From a virus (lineage: Duplodnaviria; Caudoviricetes), in IMG/VR virus record IMGVR_UViG_2974670102_000001, positions 198,654-262,653 of that record: a stretch of DNA of 64,000 bases. One strand, written 5' to 3'. The translations under genes and the position numbers were made by a program. Every line of letters starts with the position of its first letter. Within the stretch, counting starts at the first letter, position 1. Shown here piece after piece: positions 16,737-54,551 of the stretch. The notes beneath the pieces are model-generated. The model searched no databases, was not told the DNA's origin, and saw only the letters and a program-made list of their open reading frames with translations.

Positions 16737-16942
16737 CCCTTATCGAACTGGCGAACAAAGTGAACCAGATGCTGGCAGACGGCGCGGACCCCAATCTCGT
16801 GGTCGGCGGCCCTGATCCGTATGGTGACCTGCTGTGCGAGTTGCTGGATATCGGACTCGCGCAGGGTGCCAATGCCGTACGCCGTGGCAAACAGCAGTAC
16901 GTTGAATTGCTGGGAATCTGGTCGTTACCGGACCCGGACTAA
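16733..16942 (+). CDS. hypothetical protein
   Basis: GGAGG RBS; GTGA overlap. Confidence 0.6.
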   Translation: MTLIELANKVNQMLADGADPNLVVGGPDPYGDLLCELLDIGLAQGANAVRRGKQQYVELLGIWSLPDPD

Positions 16943-16952
16943 TGGAGGAAGG

Positions 16953-17798
16953 ATGTCGAAGAAGATGAAGAAGGACGTTATGGGTAACCAGATGAAAGCG
17001 TTCGAAGCGCAGGAAACGGGTCGCGAATTCATGCCCGAAACGTACATCGTGGCGCGTCTCGACGGCCGTGCGTTCCACACGTTCACGCGTGGTCTGGAGC
17101 GCCCGTACTCGAAGCGGTTCTCGCGCTGCATGCTCACGACTGCGGCTGCTCTCGTCGAGGATTTCCACGCGGACCTCGCATACACCCAAAGCGACGAGAT
17201 CACGCTGATGTGGGAACCGCGTGCTCAGGAAAACCTGCCGTTTGCGGGCCGCATCTTCAAATTCAATTCGCTGCTGGCAGCACGCGCATCCGTCGCGTTC
17301 CTGCGGGCGGTGGCGCAGGAGATTCCTGAGAAGGCGCACCTGAATCCGCTGTTCGACTGCCGCGCGTTCGCTACCCCGAACGAGGAAGTTGCGTTCTCCC
17401 AGTTCCTGTGGCGCGAGATCGATGCCACGCGCAACTCACTGATGATGCTGGCGCAGGCTCACTACTCCCACAAGGAGTTGCACGGCAAGGGCTCGGCGGC
17501 CCAGCACGATCTGCTGCACGCGCGTGGCATCAACTGGAACGACGAGCCCGCGTTCTTCAAGCGCGGGACCTACTTGCGCCGCTTGAACTACATGCGTACG
17601 CTCAGCGACGCGGAACTGGCACGTATTCCGGTGGCCAAGCGCCCTGACGGTCCGGTGATCAGGAGCAACGTGTTCCCGCTGGCGGTGCCACCGGTCGCCA
17701 GTTTGGGCAGGTTCGATGCGATCTACGAATGTGGTGCTGATCGTACCAATCCGTGGTTCCCGGACGAGCGTCTGCGGGACTTGCCAGCCTATAACTAA
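16953..17798 (+). CDS. tRNA(His) guanylyltransferase Thg1-like (3'-5' polymerase)
   Basis: RLDGRAFHTFT, YTQSDEITL, FDCRAF, WREIDATRNS, GINWN..P.FFKRG. Confidence 0.93.
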   Translation: MSKKMKKDVMGNQMKAFEAQETGREFMPETYIVARLDGRAFHTFTRGLERPYSKRFSRCMLTTAAALVEDFHADLAYTQSDEITLMWEPRAQENLPFAGRIFKFNSLLAARASVAFLRAVAQEIPEKAHLNPLFDCRAFATPNEEVAFSQFLWREIDATRNSLMMLAQAHYSHKELHGKGSAAQHDLLHARGINWNDEPAFFKRGTYLRRLNYMRTLSDAELARIPVAKRPDGPVIRSNVFPLAVPPVASLGRFDAIYECGADRTNPWFPDERLRDLPAYN

Positions 17799-20751: not shown

Positions 20752-20775
20752 TCCAACAAGTGACTGGAGGTGTTA

Positions 20776-20982
20776 ATGAACAACGTAGCGTCCCGCATTC
20801 TCGGCATCCTGAGCACCGAACTCGATCTCGAACCCGAGCACCTGAGTGTCGACCATTCGTTCCACTTTTCGGAATTCGAAACCGCACTGGACGACGAGTT
20901 CGATCTTCTGTCGGGTGCCGTCGTCTACGAATTCATGTCCGTGCGGGACATGGCATCGCGCATCGAGCGAGTTCTGGCGTGA
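20776..20982 (+). CDS. acyl-carrier-protein-like protein lacking the DSL motif
   Basis: RILGILSTELDLEPEHLSVDHSF..FETALDDEFD...FMSVRDMASRI aligns by eye to ACP helices I, II and IV. Confidence 0.6.
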   Translation: MNNVASRILGILSTELDLEPEHLSVDHSFHFSEFETALDDEFDLLSGAVVYEFMSVRDMASRIERVLA

Positions 20983-22486: not shown

Positions 22487-22870
22487 ATGCGTGCAACTCA
22501 TGCAAAGCTTGAAGTAACGGGAGAGCGTAGCGCCCTTATCACTGCCGACATCATCGCGCGCTTTATCGGCAGCGAAATTACGTATCTCGCGGACTTGGTG
22601 GACGACACGCAACCCCTGCGGGTCGTAAACCTGCGCTTCCGTGGTGATCTCGCAGACCTGCATGGTGAAAAGATCATGCTGCCGTTCGCGGATGCAGTTC
22701 GCGGCGGCAAGGCTCTCGGGCTGCTCATCAAGCGCATCAACTGCGCGGCGGCGCAAGTGGGCTATGCAGCACACAGTTTGGTTGATCAGTATGCTGGTGC
22801 AACCGTGGACACCGATGCGGAAACCGGGAAGATCGTGGTGACCGTACGACTTCAAAGGAGCCGAGCATGA
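22487..22870 (+). CDS. hypothetical protein
   Basis: GGAGG RBS. Confidence 0.7.
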   Translation: MRATHAKLEVTGERSALITADIIARFIGSEITYLADLVDDTQPLRVVNLRFRGDLADLHGEKIMLPFADAVRGGKALGLLIKRINCAAAQVGYAAHSLVDQYAGATVDTDAETGKIVVTVRLQRSRA

Positions 22871-23688
22871 CGCCACGACAACGCGAAAACGCGCAGCACG
22901 CAATCAATCAGGGCAATCGCTACCCGCTCGACAGCCTGCAAACCGTCCACTGGACGCTGGACGCTGCTCGCGGTATCATGCGCGAACTGAACGGCCGTGA
23001 CTCGTTTGGTGACGCGCCCGACGAGTGCGATCAGGCTGTTCTCGACGAAATCACGGTAGCGATCCAGAACATCATCCGGGTCGCGCACGCCTCTGTTAGC
23101 GAGCACGCGGATCAACCGCCCTCGGCCACCGATGCAGCCATCGCGCTGGCGCATGAAGCCCAGTCGGCCGTCACCTCGATCTACGCTACGCATTTCGGTA
23201 TCGGTGACGTGCAGTGGCATGAGGACATCGAGCGCGAAACCGGGCTGGACGAGAACGACCGTCAGGAATTGCAGGAAGCACTGGAACAGCGTTTCAGCGC
23301 CGTGTTCGACGAACGCGAATTCGAGGCGTGCCGCACGGCCAGCGCTCTCGTCGCCTTTATCGTCAAGAACCTGCTGCCGTTCGAGGGCGACCCGCTGGTG
23401 GTTGCCACGCAGACGGCCAAGGATCGTGTGATCGTGGCCCGGGCCCTCTACAAGCTGCTGAGTGCCGATCTCAACATCCACGAATGCAGCAGCGCCGACC
23501 GCCTGTTCGAAGACCTCCAGATCAACAGCGCGGATGCTGGTAACCTGATCCGCGATCTGGGTGACGATCTTGGCATCGACATCGCGAGTGTGCTGTTCCA
23601 ACTCAAGGAGCCTGCTATCGAAGATGTGCTGGAGATCGGAGCCCTCAAGCTGGAGGCACAGCGTGCACGCAAGGTTGCCCATGGATGA
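22867..23688 (+). CDS. protein with two ACP-like domains
   Basis: ETGLDENDRQELQEALEQRF..FEACRTASALVAFI and FEDLQINSADAGNLIRDLGDDLGIDI. Confidence 0.7.
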   Translation: MTPRQRENAQHAINQGNRYPLDSLQTVHWTLDAARGIMRELNGRDSFGDAPDECDQAVLDEITVAIQNIIRVAHASVSEHADQPPSATDAAIALAHEAQSAVTSIYATHFGIGDVQWHEDIERETGLDENDRQELQEALEQRFSAVFDEREFEACRTASALVAFIVKNLLPFEGDPLVVATQTAKDRVIVARALYKLLSADLNIHECSSADRLFEDLQINSADAGNLIRDLGDDLGIDIASVLFQLKEPAIEDVLEIGALKLEAQRARKVAHG

Positions 23689-27909: not shown

Positions 27910-28199
27910 TGGCCATCATCGACACGATGCCTGCGACCCATCTGGAGTTCGCGAAGGACCCGAACGAGACGCGGCCCGAAGTCCTGTGGGCCGAGATCGA
28001 GCGTCTGCACGCTATGGCCTACCACTCGAACGGCACCCTGTGGCAGGAACTCGCAATCGAGGAAAAGATGAAGCGCATCAAGATGGAGGCCGGTGTCATG
28101 GCCAACATCCGGGACTTGCTTTGTTCGGTGACCGGGGTTAAACTGGATACCCTTACGATTCAACGTATCCTCAAAACCGCACAGGGAGAGCAAGCATGA
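27909..28199 (+). CDS. hypothetical protein
   Basis: TAATG overlap. Confidence 0.65.
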   Translation: MAIIDTMPATHLEFAKDPNETRPEVLWAEIERLHAMAYHSNGTLWQELAIEEKMKRIKMEAGVMANIRDLLCSVTGVKLDTLTIQRILKTAQGEQA

Positions 28200-28600
28200 A
28201 GACGAAAGAGATTCTGAATCTACTGCTGGAGATCAATCGGGCTGTGGCACGGGCCCCCGACAAACCTCTGGGCTTGGGCACCGTCGAAACTTTGGGTCGT
28301 GCCATCGAGGCGCTGAGCAAGAAGCAGAAGCGTAAGTTCGAGCGGCATGTCAACGACTGGTTCACGCGTGAGGTTGCCCGCATGTCGGCTACCAAAGCGC
28401 ATCGCATCGACGGCTGGGAGACGCTGGAAGAGTACGGTTTCGAGGTGCATGGTGGGACGGACGATGCCCCCGTCAACGACTACCAAGAACTGCAACACGC
28501 AATCGAGCGTGAGACCGGCGTAAAGATTCCGCTGTTCGTGCTCTACCACACGACCATCGAGGGCATCATCCAGTACATCATTCACGGAGGCGCACAATGA
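28196..28600 (+). CDS. protein with C-terminal ACP-like domain
   Basis: TLEEYGF...DYQELQHAIERETGVKIP..LYHTTIEGIIQYI. Confidence 0.65.
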   Translation: MKTKEILNLLLEINRAVARAPDKPLGLGTVETLGRAIEALSKKQKRKFERHVNDWFTREVARMSATKAHRIDGWETLEEYGFEVHGGTDDAPVNDYQELQHAIERETGVKIPLFVLYHTTIEGIIQYIIHGGAQ

Positions 28601-30071: not shown

Positions 30072-30096
30072 CAGCGTAGGCAGAACTATTTAAACT
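30068..30096 (+). promoter_or_regulatory. sigma70-type promoter
   Basis: TTGACA-17-TAAACT. Confidence 0.8.
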
Positions 30097-30122
30097 TGCG
30101 CCATTCCATTCAAGGAGAGCAA

Positions 30123-31274
30123 ATGTTTCCGACAATCAAACATATCAACGATCTGCAACCGTTCGTCGAAGGCATCGAAGAGATCAAGTTCCTGAAGCAG
30201 CCGGGTCAACGCACGGTCGTCTGCTACACGTTCATGGACAGCCACACGTTCGACACGCCGAAGGCCCGTGAGTGCCGTGGTATCTCGTTCGACATCAACG
30301 GCAACGTCGAGAGCCGTCCGCTCCACAAGTTCTTCAACATGGGCGAGAAGCCGTGGCTCATGGAGGACAACATCCGACGCGCGGGTCGCGCAGGTGCCAT
30401 CGTCGGCATCTACAACAAGATCGACGGCTCGATGGTGAACACGTCGTACTCGATGGCCAGCGGCTTCGCCTACAAGTCGAAGAAGTCGTATTCGAGCGAT
30501 ACCGTTCTCATGTTCGAGAAGCATGTGCCGGTGCGCATCGACGAGTTCTCGCGCCGTGTCGCGGGCATGGGCTATACCGCGACGTACGAGTTCACGCACC
30601 CGGAAGCCCAGATCGTGGTTCCACACGCGGTGCCCGACATCAAGCTGCTGCATATCCGGGACAACACGACGGGCGAATACGTGATGCTGAACAAACAGCA
30701 CATGATCTGGGACCTGATCCACGCGCACGCGGTGCCGTATTCGGTGAATCTGCTGCCGGAACTCTCGGTCGACGCCGCTATCGATAGTCTCGAATCCATG
30801 ATCGACAACGAGGGCTTCGTCTTCCAGTTCGCGGACGGTGACATGGTGAAAGCAAAGTGCCCGTGGTACTCGTCGAACCATCGTGCGATCTCGTACATGC
30901 GCGAGCGCGATATCGCGGTGCTCGTGCTGAACGAGCAACTGGACGATCTGAAGGGCACGCTCGTGAAGCTGGGTCACGATCTGGGTCCCGTCGAGGAAGT
31001 CGAGCACCGGGTCAAGGAACGCATGCTCCAGATCGACCGTGACATCGATTTTCTGGCTGGCGTCGGTGCCGCGCTTCGTGCCACAAATCCCGAGGGTTGG
31101 AAGAAGGCGTTTGCGGCGTCCCACTCGAAGCTCGAACTGTTCGGTCTGGCGGTCAAGCGACTGGAAGGCCGCGACGAGCAGGTCGTGACGTGGTACACGC
31201 GTTCGAAACTGAAGGACGAATTCGGGCTCCGCTCGCTCCTGAACGCAAGCCAGCAAGAGGCAATGGAGGGTTAA
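30123..31274 (+). CDS. T4 Rnl1-like RNA ligase
   Basis: ECRGISFD, SRPLHKFFNMGE, motif I KIDGS, YEF, EGFV, VKAKCPWY. Confidence 0.92.
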   Translation: MFPTIKHINDLQPFVEGIEEIKFLKQPGQRTVVCYTFMDSHTFDTPKARECRGISFDINGNVESRPLHKFFNMGEKPWLMEDNIRRAGRAGAIVGIYNKIDGSMVNTSYSMASGFAYKSKKSYSSDTVLMFEKHVPVRIDEFSRRVAGMGYTATYEFTHPEAQIVVPHAVPDIKLLHIRDNTTGEYVMLNKQHMIWDLIHAHAVPYSVNLLPELSVDAAIDSLESMIDNEGFVFQFADGDMVKAKCPWYSSNHRAISYMRERDIAVLVLNEQLDDLKGTLVKLGHDLGPVEEVEHRVKERMLQIDRDIDFLAGVGAALRATNPEGWKKAFAASHSKLELFGLAVKRLEGRDEQVVTWYTRSKLKDEFGLRSLLNASQQEAMEG

Positions 31275-31722: not shown

Positions 31723-31962
31723 GTGAAGTACTTGATCTACGACTGGTGTATCGACATAGGTGTCTGGAACAAGCACGACGACATAAACCGTGTGATCGAT
31801 GCGCTTGCGCGGCAGGGTTACGTGACGGACGACGTGGTGATCACCTCGATCTGGATCAGCCACTCGCGCAAAGCCGACAGCAACTGGTTGCCGATGGACA
31901 ACCTGACCGACGAAGAGTTGGCGGCTGTCTTCATCGGCTACTGCGAACGACAGGAGTGTTGA
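31723..31962 (+). CDS. hypothetical protein
   Basis: GTGA overlap. Confidence 0.6.
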   Translation: MKYLIYDWCIDIGVWNKHDDINRVIDALARQGYVTDDVVITSIWISHSRKADSNWLPMDNLTDEELAAVFIGYCERQEC

Positions 31963-31964
31963 AA

Positions 31965-32810
31965 ATGTACGAAACGATGGATGCCCGGATCAAGGACGCG
32001 CTGGATAATGTGGAACGCACGCAGGGCGTGAAAATCCTGATGGCCGTGGAGTCGGGCTCGCGCGCATGGGGCTTCGAGAGCCCGGACTCGGATTACGACG
32101 TGCGGTTCATCTACGTGCGCTCGTTCAACGAGTACCTGACGGTGCACGAGCGCCGTGACGTACTGGATTGCCACACGCAGGGCTTCAAGGACTGCCTGAA
32201 GGGCACGCCCATGGATCACCCGGACCTCGATCTCGTGGGCTGGGACGTGAAGAAGGTGCTGGCTTTGATGCAAAAGTCGAATCCGCAACTTCTGGAATGG
32301 ATCAACTCGCCTGTCGTGTATCGCGGCAACCACGCGGCCGTGGATGACCTGTATGTTCTGGCCCACAAGATGCTGCGTGCGCGGCCCGTGATCCAGCACT
32401 ACCTGCACATGGCCAAGGGCAACTATCGCGAGTATCTGAGGACGCCGATGGTGCGCTACAAGAAGTACCTGTACGTGATCCGTCCGCTGCTGGCTGCGCG
32501 GTGGATGCTGGAACGCGTGGACCCGCCTCCCGTGTCGTTCGCGATCCTGAACTCGGCAACGGGTGACGAGGACCTGCAAGAGCCGCTGAACCGGCTGCTT
32601 GAGGTCAAGCGTCGCTCCGGTGAAGCCGACGTGCACCCGGCCGACCCCAAGCTGAACCGATGGATCGAGGACGCGATGCGTGATGTCGAAGACGGGCTGC
32701 AATACGTTCCGGACGGCCCGGGCCATGAACTCGATCTCGACTTCGAATTCCGGACCCTCCTATACCAGTGGGCTGACGGCAACCCCGCAGACGCGAGGCC
32801 CGTACGATGA
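31965..32810 (+). CDS. Pol-beta-family nucleotidyltransferase (YcgL/RlaP-like)
   Basis: AVESGSRAWGFESPDSDYDVRFIY, GWD.KK.L.L..KSNP.LLEW..SP, KKYLYVIRPLLA. Confidence 0.9.
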   Translation: MYETMDARIKDALDNVERTQGVKILMAVESGSRAWGFESPDSDYDVRFIYVRSFNEYLTVHERRDVLDCHTQGFKDCLKGTPMDHPDLDLVGWDVKKVLALMQKSNPQLLEWINSPVVYRGNHAAVDDLYVLAHKMLRARPVIQHYLHMAKGNYREYLRTPMVRYKKYLYVIRPLLAARWMLERVDPPPVSFAILNSATGDEDLQEPLNRLLEVKRRSGEADVHPADPKLNRWIEDAMRDVEDGLQYVPDGPGHELDLDFEFRTLLYQWADGNPADARPVR

Positions 32811-48248: not shown

Positions 48249-48546
48249 CGGCAATCCTGAAAACGAATTCGGTCTTGACACTGGGACGCAGGATCACGTC
48301 CGCTGCGTACACGATGTCGCCTACATGTCCTTCACGCAGGTACTGCACGCTGTCAATCAGCTTGATCGCGGCCACGATTTCGCGGTCTCCGGATTCGCCC
48401 TCCGAAAACAGGGCCGCCGAGCCCAAATATGTAGTCCAGTACGGACTGCCGTGATCGGTGGCGTACGCGAAATACAAGAGGCGGCCGTTTTGCTGCTGAC
48501 ACACGAGCATGCGTTTCAGCGGCGGTTGCTTGAATTCAATTGGCAC
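48235..48546 (-). CDS. hypothetical protein
   Basis: ORF in the minus-strand operon. Confidence 0.65.
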   Translation of the reverse strand: MPIEFKQPPLKRMLVCQQQNGRLLYFAYATDHGSPYWTTYLGSAALFSEGESGDREIVAAIKLIDSVQYLREGHVGDIVYAADVILRPSVKTEFVFRIADADE

Positions 48547-49075
48547 CGGAGCCCCCGCACACTTTGTTGATGAGGTCCCAGTACAGATCGATCATGAGTT
48601 CCGCGATCTCGTAGACCCGGTGGAAGCCCATGAAATCCTCCAGATCGACTGCGAACAGGGATTCGAGGTGCTTCTTCACCATCTGGTACGCTTCGTCCGT
48701 GTAGCCGAGATCGGTGTACAGATCGTCGGAAAGGCCGATGTAGAACGTCTCGGCCCGCTTGTTCGGACAGTTGTAGCACAGGACACCGCGAACCACGGTC
48801 TTCACGAATTCCGCGACTTCCACACGGTTGGCCACATTCGGATACTCCACGTCATAGAACGGGAACACGGTCATGTAGTACTTGCCGTTTTCCAGAACCG
48901 TGAACTTGGGGTTGGGCGTCACGATAACGCCTTGATCCTTGACCGGCTCCTTGTTGGGGCCGACGCCTAGCGCCGCATCCCACGCAGCCTGAAGGTCGGC
49001 AGGCAGGATGTAGCCACGCACTTGCAGCACTTCTCGGTGGTAGCGTTCCCACCACTGTTCGAAATTTTCAGCCAC
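48536..49075 (-). CDS. hypothetical protein with N-terminal FEQWW..AAWDAA module
   Basis: GGAG RBS; GTG start. Confidence 0.7.
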   Translation of the reverse strand: MAENFEQWWERYHREVLQVRGYILPADLQAAWDAALGVGPNKEPVKDQGVIVTPNPKFTVLENGKYYMTVFPFYDVEYPNVANRVEVAEFVKTVVRGVLCYNCPNKRAETFYIGLSDDLYTDLGYTDEAYQMVKKHLESLFAVDLEDFMGFHRVYEIAELMIDLYWDLINKVCGGSGAN

Positions 49076-51477: not shown

Positions 51478-51657
51478 TTATTCAAAATCGTCTTCCACAT
51501 CCATGTCGTGGCCGAATCGGTCGCGCTCGCGAGCCTCTTGATAGCCGTTCTTCCACTCGTACCAGTTTTGCGTTTCCTTCTCATATCTGTTGAGGCGGCG
51601 TCCGGCGTCACCATACTTCAAATACGCGTTAAAACCTTCCTGCTCAACCGTGTTCAT
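51478..51657 (-). CDS. RMF-like small protein
   Basis: EQEGFNAY...NRY......EWKNGYQEA. Confidence 0.5.
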   Translation of the reverse strand: MNTVEQEGFNAYLKYGDAGRRLNRYEKETQNWYEWKNGYQEARERDRFGHDMDVEDDFE

Positions 51658-51986
51658 CAATCTCCCTTCCCGAATTCCTTGTTTACCATATGGGCCCACA
51701 GGTCAGCCTCTATCTTGGACCTGAATGTCAGCATCCCGTTTTCACCGCTGGGCCACCAGTCGCGTGTATACGCGTCGTTCTTGAACACGGTCAGACGCTC
51801 TACACACCACACCTTCGCGTTCAGCGGACGCGGTGCCGGGCACCACGGCCCGCGTATCAGCACCTCGTGCTCCACATCCTGCGTGGACCCGAAATCTACC
51901 AGCCCATTTTTCCACACGCAAGTACCGCACCCACCGTTCTTGGCACGATACTCACATGTTTTATCCTCTATGCAAAACTGAGCCAT
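51657..51986 (-). CDS. hypothetical Cys-rich protein
   Basis: TAATG overlap. Confidence 0.6.
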   Translation of the reverse strand: MAQFCIEDKTCEYRAKNGGCGTCVWKNGLVDFGSTQDVEHEVLIRGPWCPAPRPLNAKVWCVERLTVFKNDAYTRDWWPSGENGMLTFRSKIEADLWAHMVNKEFGKGD

Positions 51987-53839
51987 TACGTGGCCTGTTG
52001 CGCAGCCAGCACGCTATTTACCATGTCCTGTGGCGTTACCCAGTTGGCGACCGCCGCCAGCGGAATGTCGATGCCGAACACGCCGCTCAATTCCTGCCAC
52101 GCCATTTCCATGTCCACGCTGCCCCAGCCGTAGGTGTCGCACAGGCTCGTGGTTTCGGTCACGGTGCCCGTGAACGGGTCCACGTTGATGAGAGCATCCA
52201 TGACACGGTGCGTCACGTCGACCACATGGTCACGTCCAGCCGCTTCTGCTTCTGCCTGCTCCTTGGCACGCAGCAGCTTCACCACCGTCTTCACCACGTC
52301 CGCCACCGTAGTCCAATCCTCTGCGTCCTTCAGCGGGATGTTGAGGCCGAACCGACGATCCAGCGAGTACGCGAGGTTCATGCGCGAGTGGTGGTAGAAA
52401 TTGCAATCGCACTGGAGGTGATCCGTGTACGACAGACTTTCACCGCCGCTCTCGTTACGCAGGATGTAGCCGCGAATGTGATCGAACGCCTGTTGCGCAT
52501 CCGAAACTGCCACCTTATCAGCGTACTGCGATGCGACTTCAGAAGCGACCTGTACGGCAAAGCGATTCAGCGCGATCTGTCGCAGCACGTCGGCCACCAC
52601 ATCCGACACCAGTTCCCAGTCCTGCGTCGTGTGATCGAGCTTGATCGAGAACGCGTCGTTCAGGCGTTGCACCAGTTGCTCGTCGTACTGACCCGGGTAC
52701 AGGTGATCCAGATTCGAGAGGATACCGATGGAGGGCGCGCGTTCCAGCATTACCTTCGACGCGTACTCTTCAGCCACGGCTTTGATGTGCTCCGCGACCT
52801 TCCAGAAAACGGCTTCCGACAATTCGGCCGGGCTCAGTCCGTCAAACGGCATGCAGGTGCGTGCAATCTCGATCAGATCGCGGTCGATATTCAGCGCCCG
52901 TTGCACGTTCTGTTCCGCTGCGTCCAAGACAAAGCCGTCCTCTTCATCATCCTCGTCTTCGTCTACAACGTCATCTGCGTCACGCGGCAGATCGTCGTCA
53001 CCGTCCGGGTCACCCTTGTCGTCGATGCTGTCGTTCTCGCGCAGACGGCCTTCGCACGCGTCAATGATGTAGGCCACGATGTCGTGGATCGTGCACCAAC
53101 TCGTGTACTCGACTTCCGGAGCCAGAACCGCGTAATGGTCGGCAATCGAATGGCTCATCGTCTGCATGTTCACGTCCGTGAATCCGAATTTGCTGCGGAT
53201 GTGCGTGCTGCTCGACAATTCATCGTTGCGATCCACACAATCGAACGTGGAAACCATGCCAATCACGAACCACAGGGTCGGCAGGTAGTTGGCGTCGCGG
53301 GCCGTATGCGTATTGTTGAGTGCACCCTCGTACACGCCATTGCAGCCTTCGAGGATACCGAGCACCGCGTCGTTCACCGTGACCCAGCGATCCGGGTGCG
53401 CGCCGAGATCAGCGTAGCTGCTACGCAGGCTGTTGCGCAGGCGGCAGCGGTCTTCCTCGCCCATTTCGAGATCGAACGCGAGGTAGTCGGTCGGCATCAC
53501 TTCCGGGTCCGTCATGTCGTGCTCCATGATCGAGCGGATGATGACTTTCACGACCTCCAGCACGTTGTGGTGGTTCGGATGCGTGATCTGCGGAGGCGCT
53601 TTCGAGGGCGACGGGCGCACAGGCGTCGGCTTGGCCGGAGTGTCCAGCATGATCGTGAACTTCTCTTGGTAGCCACCCACGGTTTCGAGAACGCCCAGCT
53701 TCCGGCCCATGAATTCGAGGCCGCTGACCGTGGGCTTTTCCTTGATCTCGTTGAAGAACGATTCTTCGCACTTGCCCCAGTCCGTCCAGTTGCCGTTGTT
53801 GAGGCCACGAACGCGGTATTGGTAAACGATGTCAGCCAT
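51986..53839 (-). CDS. protein with five tandem ACP-like domains
   Basis: Repeats ending W.TV.D.V-like; e.g. SLCDTYGWGSVDMEMAWQELSGVFGIDIP..W.T..D.V and SLDRRFGLNIPLKDAEDWTTVADVV; AGGAG RBS. Confidence 0.8.
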   Translation of the reverse strand: MADIVYQYRVRGLNNGNWTDWGKCEESFFNEIKEKPTVSGLEFMGRKLGVLETVGGYQEKFTIMLDTPAKPTPVRPSPSKAPPQITHPNHHNVLEVVKVIIRSIMEHDMTDPEVMPTDYLAFDLEMGEEDRCRLRNSLRSSYADLGAHPDRWVTVNDAVLGILEGCNGVYEGALNNTHTARDANYLPTLWFVIGMVSTFDCVDRNDELSSSTHIRSKFGFTDVNMQTMSHSIADHYAVLAPEVEYTSWCTIHDIVAYIIDACEGRLRENDSIDDKGDPDGDDDLPRDADDVVDEDEDDEEDGFVLDAAEQNVQRALNIDRDLIEIARTCMPFDGLSPAELSEAVFWKVAEHIKAVAEEYASKVMLERAPSIGILSNLDHLYPGQYDEQLVQRLNDAFSIKLDHTTQDWELVSDVVADVLRQIALNRFAVQVASEVASQYADKVAVSDAQQAFDHIRGYILRNESGGESLSYTDHLQCDCNFYHHSRMNLAYSLDRRFGLNIPLKDAEDWTTVADVVKTVVKLLRAKEQAEAEAAGRDHVVDVTHRVMDALINVDPFTGTVTETTSLCDTYGWGSVDMEMAWQELSGVFGIDIPLAAVANWVTPQDMVNSVLAAQQAT

Positions 53840-53872
53840 GTGTTGTGCTCCTGAGAAGTTGTCGATCCGTGA

Positions 53873-53917
53873 ATAATACGGAAAAAGGGCCTTGGAGTCA
53901 ACCCCCAAGGCCCTTTT
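53873..53917 (-). promoter_or_regulatory. terminator-like hairpin with a sigma70 -35 in its loop
   Basis: TTGACT-17-TATTAT; 13-bp arms AAAAGGGCCTTGG/CCAAGGCCCTTTT. Confidence 0.8.
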
Positions 53918-53930
53918 CATTTACTGCTGG

Positions 53931-54551
53931 TTACGCGCGACGAAGCGGCAGGTCCTTCTTCACCAGACCTTCCGGAACCGGCAACCGGTTCGCGTACTTG
54001 CGGATCAGGATGAAGGTCAGCACACCACCCGACAGGATCGAGGCGATCACCAGACCGATCACGAGCAGCGCAATCGCGGCCTTGGGATCGTCGCTGTCGA
54101 ACAGGTCGACATCACCGAAGAAGTCTTTCACTCCGGAGAACGCACCGCCCACGTTCTGGAACGCGTTGTACATGTTGTAGGCTTGTGCGAACGAGTTGTA
54201 CGCCGCGCCGCCCATGCTCAGCAGACTTCGTTCACGATACGCCACGATCCACGAATGGATGGTGATGATGAGACCGGAGCCCAGTGCCGGGAAGATGATC
54301 AGCAGATACCACAGATTCATTGCTGCCTGTGCGGCCGTGGCAGGCAGGTAGCCGAACTTGTAGAGCACGGCACCCATGATGAAGCCGAACACACTGGAAA
54401 ACCCGACCACCGACTGGATGGCCGCCGACCACGCGAGGACGCGGGAGAAACCGCCCACGCCCTTCGACTCGTTCCAGATGCCACCAACCGCGTAGCAGTT
54501 CCACCACGAGATACCGAAGTTCAGGACGAGAAGCAACACGAGCATGAACAT
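53931..54551 (-). CDS. polytopic membrane protein
   Basis: Four or more hydrophobic segments; AGGAGG RBS. Confidence 0.8.
   Translation of the reverse strand: MFMLVLLLVLNFGISWWNCYAVGGIWNESKGVGGFSRVLAWSAAIQSVVGFSSVFGFIMGAVLYKFGYLPATAAQAAMNLWYLLIIFPALGSGLIITIHSWIVAYRERSLLSMGGAAYNSFAQAYNMYNAFQNVGGAFSGVKDFFGDVDLFDSDDPKAAIALLVIGLVIASILSGGVLTFILIRKYANRLPVPEGLVKKDLPLRRA

What the first reader, a model, noticed from the sequence alone, without database searches (positions are those of the whole stretch)
51986..53839. Poly-ACP protein: five tandem acyl-carrier-protein-like domains, mostly lacking the phosphopantetheine serine
Seen: five repeats of about 70-80 aa follow the ACP pattern (E. coli ACP: [46 protein letters not shown]). 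The GxDSLD site reads EMGEED, GFTDVN, poorly alignable, NFYHHS and GWGSVD, so only the last domain keeps Ser. No PKS/NRPS/PPTase gene is in the window, and the gene is first behind its own sigma70 promoter. Established: host ACP binds SpoT, MukB, lipid A and phospholipid acyltransferases and LuxI-type AHL synthases. Inference: these are non-acylatable ACP decoys that titrate an ACP-dependent host process (stringent response, lipid synthesis, quorum sensing or a defence system that uses ACP).
Basis: partly seen in the sequence, partly recalled or inferred. Interest (0 to 1): 0.86.

Follow-up and report, generated by a model that had tools for sequence, protein, structure and literature searches.

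The report
Five-domain degenerate acyl carrier protein, jumbo phage
A Burkholderia jumbo phage makes a 617-residue protein that is a string of five very diverged copies of the bacterial acyl carrier protein fold; only the last copy keeps the serine that could hold the cofactor, so the other four cannot carry lipids by the usual chemistry, and what they do is unknown.

Summary
The gene (window 51986-53839, minus strand, 617 aa) encodes a 65-aa N-terminal domain, a proline-rich linker and five ACP-fold domains.

- **ACP homology:** a profile of the five repeats alone hits only acyl carrier proteins in the PDB (best E 2e-8). Pfam PP-binding passes its cut-off (24 vs 20.8 bits).
- **Fold:** MSA-free ESM Atlas models of D2 and D3 match ACP clusters (TM 0.76-0.83). 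An AF2 model of D5 (pLDDT 87) matches ACPs only.
- **Serine:** only D5 has Ser at the N-terminus of helix II. D1-D4 have E, D, Q/E and H there.

The "ACP decoy" reading is only partly supported. The acidic helix II that ACP partners recognise is eroded in D1-D4 (net charge -1, -2, -2, +2, against -6 to -7 in canonical ACPs).

D5 looks like a live carrier. Its Ser is kept in the one known orthologue (BcepSaruman gp422, 94% identical), although 30 of 35 substitutions fall in D5.

The phage encodes no PPTase, adenylating enzyme, AcpH or ketosynthase. It has four or so further ACP-like proteins, mostly Ser-less; relatives phiRSL1 and BCSR5 each gave one match, a canonical ACP.

Earlier notes of this scan report Ser-less phage ACPs on other DNA. 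The five-domain array looks new, and its function is untested.

The parts
51986..53839 (-). CDS of the 617-aa poly-ACP-fold protein (P0002), stop codon included. Acidic: pI 4.5, 107 D+E against 50 K+R.
53882..53918 (-). Terminator-like hairpin (16 pairs, 8 G-C, T-run) ending the upstream membrane-protein gene. It contains the alternative upstream ATG at 53920, which is therefore not the start.
53873..53901 (-). Sigma70-like promoter match TTGACT-17-TATTAT (10 of 12). The -35 hexamer lies inside the hairpin.
   Evidence: 5 sites found in 5 kb against 1.7 +/- 1.5 in shuffles; pattern match only
53848..53852 (-). Shine-Dalgarno AGGAG, 8 nt before the ATG at 53839
53645..53839 (-). N-terminal domain, aa 1-65. 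No family, no paralogue in the phage, near-neutral pI.
53567..53644 (-). Pro-rich linker, aa 66-91
53330..53566 (-). D1, ACP-like repeat (aa 92-170). Glu in the Ser column (EMGEED), Arg-rich helix II. The weakest of the five.
53042..53311 (-). D2, ACP-fold domain (aa 177-266). Asp in the Ser column (GFTDVN).
   Evidence: ESM model, TM 0.79-0.83 to ACP clusters; 27 bits
52931..53035 (-). Poly-acidic linker (aa 269-303). The wider 40-aa stretch aa 269-308 holds 21 D/E.
52562..52825 (-). D3, ACP-fold domain (aa 339-426). No Ser or Thr in the loop-helix II junction (GQYDEQ).
   Evidence: (TM 0.76-0.82 to ACP clusters)
52259..52504 (-). D4, ACP-fold domain (aa 446-527). His in the Ser column (NFYHHS), Ser at +2, helix II net charge +2. 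It carries the best Pfam and PDB sequence match.
51992..52240 (-). D5, ACP-fold domain (aa 534-616). The only one with the canonical Ser (GWGSVD).
52118..52120 (-). Codon of Ser574 (Ser601 of the 644-aa frame), first residue of helix II in the D5 model. Candidate phosphopantetheine site.
51657..51986 (-). Downstream 109-aa Cys-rich ORF. Its ATG overlaps the poly-ACP stop (TAATG), so translation is probably coupled. No family match.

Best explanation
**Shown**
- The gene encodes a lineage-restricted protein, found only in this phage and in Burkholderia phage BcepSaruman.
- It is built from a small N-terminal domain, a Pro-rich linker and five ACP-fold domains.
- The five repeats share an invariant Trp in a W-x-T/V-x-x-D-x-V motif that is absent from canonical ACPs and from the phage's other ACP-like proteins.
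- There is no DNA-level repeat, so the duplication is old.

**Inferred**
- The array arose by internal duplication of a phage-borne ACP. The relatives phiRSL1 and BCSR5 each gave one match, a canonical Ser-bearing ACP.
- Only D5 is still a carrier domain. Ser574 sits at the N-terminus of helix II with Asp at +2, and would be phosphopantetheinylated by the host AcpS-type transferase, because the phage has none.
- D1-D4 are dead carrier domains. They lost both the Ser and the acidic helix II, so they no longer look like AcpP to ACP-dependent enzymes. They serve as scaffold or new binding modules.
- The protein is probably made early from a host-type promoter. It would then act in the infected cell as a single-site carrier that plugs into host acyl-ACP metabolism, tethered by its N-terminal and pseudo-ACP modules to a partner not yet known.

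I put the architecture at about 0.9. The confidence given below is for the functional reading.
For: **ACP homology**
- Pfam PF00550 passes its cut-off.
- Eight NCBIfam ACP models are the only hits.
- Profiles of the repeats hit only ACPs in the PDB.
- The same profile hits canonical ACPs in a 5.8-billion-protein database, down to E 8e-10.

**Fold**
- The D5 AF2 model has pLDDT 87, and the top 50 Foldseek PDB hits are all ACPs, TM 0.7-0.87.
- The ESM Atlas model, made without any MSA, matches ACP clusters for D2 (TM 0.83) and D3 (TM 0.82).

**Serine pattern:**

**Helix II charge erosion in D1-D4:**

**D5 Ser retained in the orthologue**
- The Ser is kept although 30 of 35 substitutions fall in the 82 residues of D5.
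- The clustering of 33 substitutions in an 83-residue span has a binomial probability of 8e-27. The span was picked from the data, so this overstates significance.
- The orthologue reads the more canonical D-S-M-D.

**Not decaying:** the N-terminal domain plus D1-D4 differ at only 2 of about 528 residues between two phages with 93% ANI (ANI from preprint 10.64898/2026.10.21.760668).

**No loading or using enzymes in the phage:**

**Canonical ACPs in relatives:**

**The same layout recurs:** the phage's 273-aa protein has a Ser-less domain first and a Ser-bearing domain last.

**Own terminator, promoter and RBS:**
Against: - No experiment or binding prediction was possible.
- The helix II stretch of D5 is less acidic than canonical ACPs (-4 against -6 to -7). 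In this phage the residue before the Ser is Gly, not Asp.
- The AF2 alignment for D5 contained nine canonical ACPs, so that fold result is partly guided by them.
- Conservation of the Ser rests on two sequences only.
- The divergent patch in D5 could be a recombination tract with no functional meaning.
- Nothing links the protein to a particular host pathway, and the N-terminal domain has no known relatives.
- The near-identity of D1-D4 between the two phages may reflect a recent exchange, not selection.
Confidence: 0.35

Rival explanations
1. ACP decoy. The Ser-less domains mimic host AcpP and titrate ACP-binding host proteins such as SpoT, MukB, LpxA/D, PlsB, AHL synthases, or a defence system.
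For: - Four of five domains cannot be loaded at the canonical site.
- The Ser column holds mostly acidic residues across the phage's ACP-like domains.
- The phage has no carrier-using enzymes.
- The gene has an early-type promoter.
- Five copies per chain would raise avidity (inference).
- The phage's separate 83-aa ACP-like protein (Ser to Asp) does keep a canonical helix II, at -7, so mimicry is plausible somewhere in this phage.
Against: - Helix II, the partner-recognition surface of ACPs, is not conserved in D1-D4. Net charge is -1, -2, -2 and +2 against -6 to -7, and D1 is Arg-rich.
- Single domains score far below every curated ACP cut-off: 32 bits against 66 or more.
- D1 is unrecognisable against canonical ACPs.
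- D5 keeps the Ser.
Confidence: 0.2
2. Repurposed fold. The ACP four-helix bundle has been recruited as a generic small binding module, as phages use Ig-like or ankyrin repeats, for a job unrelated to ACP biology. Examples are anti-defence, host takeover or acidic DNA mimicry. The Ser in D5 would then be incidental.
For: - The ACP-like family is expanded and fast-diverging: about 10 domains in 5 proteins in this phage, against one canonical ACP match each in phiRSL1 and BCSR5.
- The canonical recognition surface is lost.
- The repeats carry a new invariant Trp motif.
- The chain is very acidic and has a 35-aa poly-D/E linker.
- The gene lies in an arm of small orphan genes.
- It has no homologues outside the genus among 1.84 billion representatives.
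Against: - The Ser is kept in D5 of both phages, inside an otherwise heavily substituted stretch. The same layout, with the Ser-bearing domain last, recurs in the 273-aa paralogue.
- There is no positive evidence for any particular target.
Confidence: 0.3
3. Decaying duplicate array with no selected function for D1-D4, or for the whole gene.
For: - Repeats are only 15-22% identical to one another.
- The functional Ser is lost in four of them.
- The gene is an orphan.
Against: - The 617-codon frame is intact, with an RBS and its own promoter and terminator.
- The N-terminal domain plus D1-D4 are about 99.6% identical to BcepSaruman gp422, while the genomes share 93% ANI.
- ESM models of D2 and D3 fold as ACP-type bundles (TM 0.76-0.83 to ACP clusters).
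Confidence: 0.05

Closest known systems
Bacterial type II acyl carrier protein (AcpP; Pfam PF00550 PP-binding; e.g. PDB 2L4B, 6LVT, 1L0H/1ACP)
   Same: - Four-helix ACP fold.
- Collinear alignment over nearly the whole ACP length.
- D5 has Ser at the N-terminus of helix II.
   Different: - Five domains in one 617-aa chain, plus an unrelated N-terminal domain.
- Four domains lack the Ser.
- Helix II acidity is largely lost.
- Scores lie far below the NCBIfam equivalog cut-offs.
- No FAS context.
Single-domain phage-encoded ACPs (phrog_5934; phiRSL1 87-aa ACP next to RtcB; C-terminal ACP of a 176-aa BCSR5 protein; Motura, phiCbK, pf16 carrier proteins in BFVD)
   Same: - Phage-borne ACP fold.
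- Probably the evolutionary source of this array.
   Different: - The two read here (phiRSL1, BCSR5) are single domains with a canonical G-[GA]-D-S-L-D site.
- This protein is a five-fold array with one Ser.
Tandem-ACP arrays of PUFA synthases and some PKSs (from general knowledge, not tested here)
   Same: Several consecutive ACP domains in one polypeptide, separated by linkers.
   Different: - In those arrays every ACP keeps its Ser, the repeats are highly similar, and they sit inside a megasynthase with KS and AT domains.
- Here the repeats are 15-22% identical, four lack Ser, and the genome has no KS, adenylating enzyme or PPTase.
BcepSaruman gp422 (QBX06835.1 / YP_009904355.1; UniRef name 'Carrier domain-containing protein')
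   Same: Orthologue: 617 aa, 94% identical, same architecture.
   Different: - 30 of 35 substitutions lie in D5.
- Its D5 site reads D-S-M-D where this phage reads G-S-V-D.
- The automatic name shows a carrier domain was already flagged. In the papers I could search, nothing describes the five-domain, four-dead layout.
Ser-less ACP-like proteins of other phages, noted earlier in this scan (e1-5408914, e1-122384 and others)
   Same: Phage ACP homologues with the Ppant Ser replaced, mostly by Asp, Glu or Gln. They were read as binding proteins.
   Different: - Those are single domains, or one domain fused to something else, and several are said to keep the docking surface.
- Here there is a five-domain array with an eroded docking surface and one retained Ser.
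- Those notes are unchecked by me.

Membership tests
ACP / PP-binding superfamily (PF00550) | Sequence-profile match above the curated threshold | tested here: met
   - Whole protein scores 24 bits against a gathering score of 20.8, E 4.8e-5.
- The signal is carried mainly by D4. Scanned singly, the cut-out domains stay below the cut-off.
ACP / PP-binding superfamily (PF00550) | Four-helix ACP fold (helix I, long loop, helix II, short helix III, helix IV) | tested here: met
   - D5: AF2 pLDDT 87, with helices at residues 4-18, 42-56, 62-65 and 71-84. All top 50 PDB hits are ACPs.
- D2 and D3: ESM Atlas model, TM 0.76-0.83 to ACP clusters.
- D1 and D4: by profile only.
Functional (holo) acyl carrier protein | Conserved Ser at the N-terminus of helix II (D-S-L motif) for phosphopantetheine attachment | tested here: not met
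   - Met only in D5 (Ser574).
- D1 has Glu, D2 Asp, D3 Gln or Glu, and D4 His in that column.
- As a five-domain protein it is therefore at most a single-site carrier.
Functional (holo) acyl carrier protein | Strongly acidic recognition helix II | tested here: not met
   - Net charge of the helix II stretch: D1 -1, D2 -2, D3 -2, D4 +2, D5 -4.
- Nine canonical ACPs give -6 to -7.
Functional (holo) acyl carrier protein | Actual phosphopantetheinylation by a PPTase | not testable with these tools
   - No PPTase is encoded by the phage.
AcpP equivalogs (NCBIfam TIGR00517, PRK00982 series) | Score above the curated equivalog cut-off | tested here: not met
   Best score is 32 bits against cut-offs of 66-146. 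All eight hits are ACP models.
Tandem-ACP megasynthase module (PUFA synthase / PKS) | All repeats carry the active Ser, and KS/AT or adenylation partners are present | tested here: not met
   - One of five Ser sites remains.
- PF00109 and PF00501 are absent from the 262.6-kb genome.

The most novel reading that the evidence does not exclude
The Sarumanvirus lineage has turned a captured ACP into an expanded family of about ten ACP-fold domains in five proteins. These would act as a new class of phage binder or sponge modules. For example, Ser-less bundles might use the acyl-chain pocket to hold free fatty-acid or acyl signals of Burkholderia (BDSF or AHL type), or might bind defence or metabolic proteins through new surfaces. 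In that picture the five-domain protein is a multivalent version, with one live carrier domain as its anchor to host acyl metabolism.
Probability: 0.12. Interest if true: 0.8.

Novelty: new variant of a known kind. Interest (0 to 1): 0.5.

Why it matters
Phage-encoded ACPs are usually filed as auxiliary lipid-metabolism genes. Here a jumbo phage keeps, nearly unchanged between two isolates, a chain of four carrier domains that cannot carry by the canonical chemistry, plus one that probably can. It also has further Ser-less ACP-like genes.

If the dead domains bind host proteins or small molecules, that would be a new use of one of the most connected folds in bacterial metabolism. It would also be a handle on how large phages rewire lipid, stringent-response or signalling pathways in Burkholderia.

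If they are only spacers, the protein is still an unusual natural example of carrier-domain decay after internal duplication.

The result also corrects the simple decoy idea, because the surface a decoy would need is not conserved.

Tried and rejected
- **Full-length AF2 without an alignment:** pLDDT 36, unusable. Only its helix pattern was looked at.
- **Homologue searches:** all returned only the protein itself or its Saruman orthologue. These were a word-indexed search of 5.8 billion proteins, an exhaustive phmmer of 1.84 billion representatives, tblastn and megablast of 50,697 phage records, an IMG/VR scan, and a profile search for longer proteins.
- **BcepSaruman DNA:** could not be fetched, so there is no dN/dS and no test of recombination in D5.
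- **D1 alone against canonical ACPs by hhalign:** only a 9-column, out-of-register match. D1 is assigned through its similarity to D2-D5.
- **DNA-level repeats in the gene:** none.
- **Hairpin-with-promoter element upstream:** not a repeated sequence elsewhere in the genome.
- **Synteny:** the neighbouring genes match phages other than the helicase relatives phiRSL1 and BCSR5, so they gave no syntenic anchor there.
- **Neighbouring genes:** no ACP-related families in Pfam or PHROGs.
- **N-terminal domain:** no family and no paralogue.
- **Literature searches:** nothing on phage poly-ACP or Ser-less ACP proteins. The only item found was a predicted phage ACP-FabZ contact in preprint 10.64898/2026.03.01.708874.
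- **Earlier first-reader claim of an ACP-like 70-aa ORF at window 20770-20982:** no support from my profile (E 4.1).
Full report
**Where the gene is**

The window is the last 64 kb of a complete 262,653-bp virus record.
- That length equals the published length of Burkholderia phage BcepSauron (preprint 10.64898/2026.10.21.760668).
- The only other member of the protein's 90% cluster is gp422 of the sister phage BcepSaruman.
- BFVD lists a 134-aa BcepSauron protein among the fold matches.

I therefore take the phage to be BcepSauron, or something indistinguishable from it. This is an inference.

Its replicative helicase is about 52% identical to those of Ralstonia phage phiRSL1 and Burkholderia phage BCSR5.

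**Gene boundaries**

The longest frame is 51986-53920 on the minus strand (644 aa). The upstream membrane-protein gene ends at 53931. It is followed by these elements:
- a 16-bp terminator-like hairpin with a T-run (53918-53882);
- a TTGACT-17-TATTAT site (53901-53873);
- AGGAG at 53852-53848;
- ATG at 53839.

The first ATG lies inside the hairpin.

The stop overlaps the ATG of a 109-aa Cys-rich ORF (TAATG).

**Are there five ACP-like repeats?**

Yes.
- Pfam PP-binding matches the whole protein above its gathering score (24 against 20.8 bits, E 4.8e-5).
- The only NCBIfam hits are eight ACP models (E down to 1e-7), all far below their equivalog cut-offs.
- phmmer against PDB sequences puts an ACP first (2L4B, E 0.019).
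- Five segments align in register with each other. They share an invariant Trp, Asp and Val in a W-x-T/V-x-x-D-x-V motif at the start of helix IV.

Profile searches:
- A profile of these five segments alone gives 60 best PDB hits that are all carrier proteins (best 2.1e-8).
- The three weakest (D1-D3) alone still put an ACP first (E 0.01), and 20 of 24 hits are ACPs, aligned over their full length.
- An HMM built only from sequences outside this protein (five other domains of the phage plus nine canonical ACPs) scores it 68 bits. It finds all five domains in register: D2 27 bits, D4 15, D5 11, D1 7, D3 3.

Structure:
- The ESM Atlas holds its own language-model structure of this protein. In it, D2 matches ACP clusters at TM 0.79-0.83 and D3 at TM 0.76-0.82.
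- An AF2 model of D5, made with a 19-row alignment, has pLDDT 87. All top 50 Foldseek PDB hits are ACPs, TM 0.7-0.87. That alignment included nine canonical ACPs, so this result is not fully independent.

D1 is the weakest domain. It gives nothing against canonical ACPs alone, but hhalign gives E 3e-4 over 66 in-register columns against D2-D5.

There is no DNA-level repeat, and the repeats are 15-22% identical. The duplication is therefore old.

**The attachment site**

In the joint alignment with canonical ACPs, the Ser column reads as follows:

| Domain | Residue in the Ser column |
|---|---|
| D1 | Glu |
| D2 | Asp |
| D3 | Gln or Glu, depending on the alignment; no Ser or Thr nearby |
| D4 | His, with a Ser two residues further on |
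| D5 | Ser |

In the D5 model, helix II starts exactly at that Ser, which is Ser574 of the 617-aa form.

**What argues against a simple decoy**

ACP partners dock on acidic helix II (established knowledge).
- The net charge of that stretch is -6 to -7 in nine canonical ACPs.
- In D1, D2, D3, D4 and D5 it is -1, -2, -2, +2 and -4.
- Whole-domain charges are -2 to -9, against -16 to -18 in eight of the nine canonical ACPs.
- The phage's separate 83-aa ACP-like protein (Ser to Asp) does keep the canonical helix II, at -7. It is a better decoy candidate than this protein.

**Comparison with the orthologue**

BcepSaruman gp422 is 94% identical.
- 30 of the 35 differences lie in the 82 residues of D5, mostly in helix I and the loop before the Ser, and 3 more lie in the linker just before it.
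- The N-terminal domain and D1-D4 differ at 2 positions.
- Inside this divergent patch the Ser is kept, and the Saruman site reads D-S-M-D, closer to the canonical motif.

This favours a live site in D5 and argues against decay of D1-D4. With two sequences and no DNA, I cannot separate selection from a recombination tract.

**Genome context**

The phage has no match to the following:
- ACPS/Sfp-type transferases;
- adenylate-forming enzymes;
- AcpH;
- ketosynthases.

It does have more ACP-like proteins:
- a 273-aa protein with two domains, the first Ser-less and the second with Ser (PF00550, 30.4 bits);
- a 134-aa protein;
- a 179-aa protein with a C-terminal Ser-to-Asp domain, 3 kb downstream of this gene;
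- the 83-aa protein mentioned above.

phiRSL1 and BCSR5 each gave one match to the repeat profile, and each is a canonical Ser-bearing ACP. The family has therefore expanded and degenerated in the Sarumanvirus lineage.

Neighbouring genes give no functional clue.

**Reading**

The architecture is secure. For function I favour a single-site carrier (D5, loaded by the host transferase) carried on four dead ACP-fold modules that act as scaffold or new binding surfaces (0.35). Next come:
- a fold repurposed for something unrelated to ACP biology (0.3);
- decay (0.05).

**Novelty**

UniProt's automatic name for the Saruman orthologue ("Carrier domain-containing protein") shows that a carrier domain was already flagged. 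Many phages carry single ACPs. Earlier notes of this scan report Ser-less phage ACPs on other DNA (unchecked by me).

I found no relative or description of the five-domain array with four dead domains and one live one. I class it as a new variant of a known kind.

Noticed in passing
window 22867-23688 (+): A 273-aa protein with two ACP-like domains. PF00550 scores 30.4 bits, above the cut-off. The first domain has Glu in the Ser column and the second keeps Ser (Q-I-N-S-A-D). The layout, dead domain first and live domain last, is the same as in the 617-aa protein.
   Followed up: partly
window 48536-49075 (-): A 179-aa ORF, 3 kb downstream on the same strand. Its C-terminal part matches the phage ACP-like profile (E 0.004 among 1,901 ORFs) and has Asp in the Ser column (G-Y-T-D-E). 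Pfam and NCBIfam see nothing.
   Followed up: partly
window 28196-28600 (+): A 134-aa protein whose C-terminal half is ACP-like (PF00550, 15.8 bits), with an insertion at the Ser loop. Per the cluster record, it is identical in the 263,735-bp sister genome. It also occurs on a 1.4-kb Logan contig from SRR25068138.
   Followed up: partly
G000:C1:69670-69921 (-), outside the window (L006:1483-1731): A stand-alone 83-aa ACP homologue with Ser replaced by Asp. Its helix II is fully canonical and acidic (net -7; TIGR00517 E 5e-5). It is a better AcpP-mimic candidate than the five-domain protein.
   Followed up: partly
L011:1483-1746 (phiRSL1) and L010:1153-1683 (BCSR5): In each of these relatives the repeat profile found one ACP-like match, and each is canonical and Ser-bearing. 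In phiRSL1 it lies directly after an ORF that looks like an RtcB-type RNA ligase (my reading, not scanned). In BCSR5 it is the C-terminus of a 176-aa protein.
   Followed up: partly
window 53873-53918 (-): A terminator hairpin and a sigma70-like promoter share the same bases, with the -35 hexamer in the hairpin. A second strong promoter-like site (TTGACA-17-TAGAAT, 11 of 12) lies at 55561-55533. The hairpin sequence is not repeated elsewhere in the genome.
   Followed up: partly
window 16821-17798, 30096-31274, 31746-32810 (+): PHROG matches to a tRNA-His guanylyltransferase, an RNA ligase and a nucleotidyltransferase. This is an RNA-repair set, in line with what Iyer et al. 2021 (PMC7824862) note for BcepSauron and BcepSaruman.
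   Followed up: no
window 51657-51986 (-): A 109-aa Cys-rich orphan ORF that is translationally coupled (TAATG) to the poly-ACP gene. It is a possible partner but has no family match.
   Followed up: partly
window 20770-20982 (+): A 70-aa ORF that an earlier first-reader note calls ACP-like with the D-S-L loop deleted. My profile of the phage's ACP-like domains gives it only E 4.1, so I could not confirm it.
   Followed up: partly
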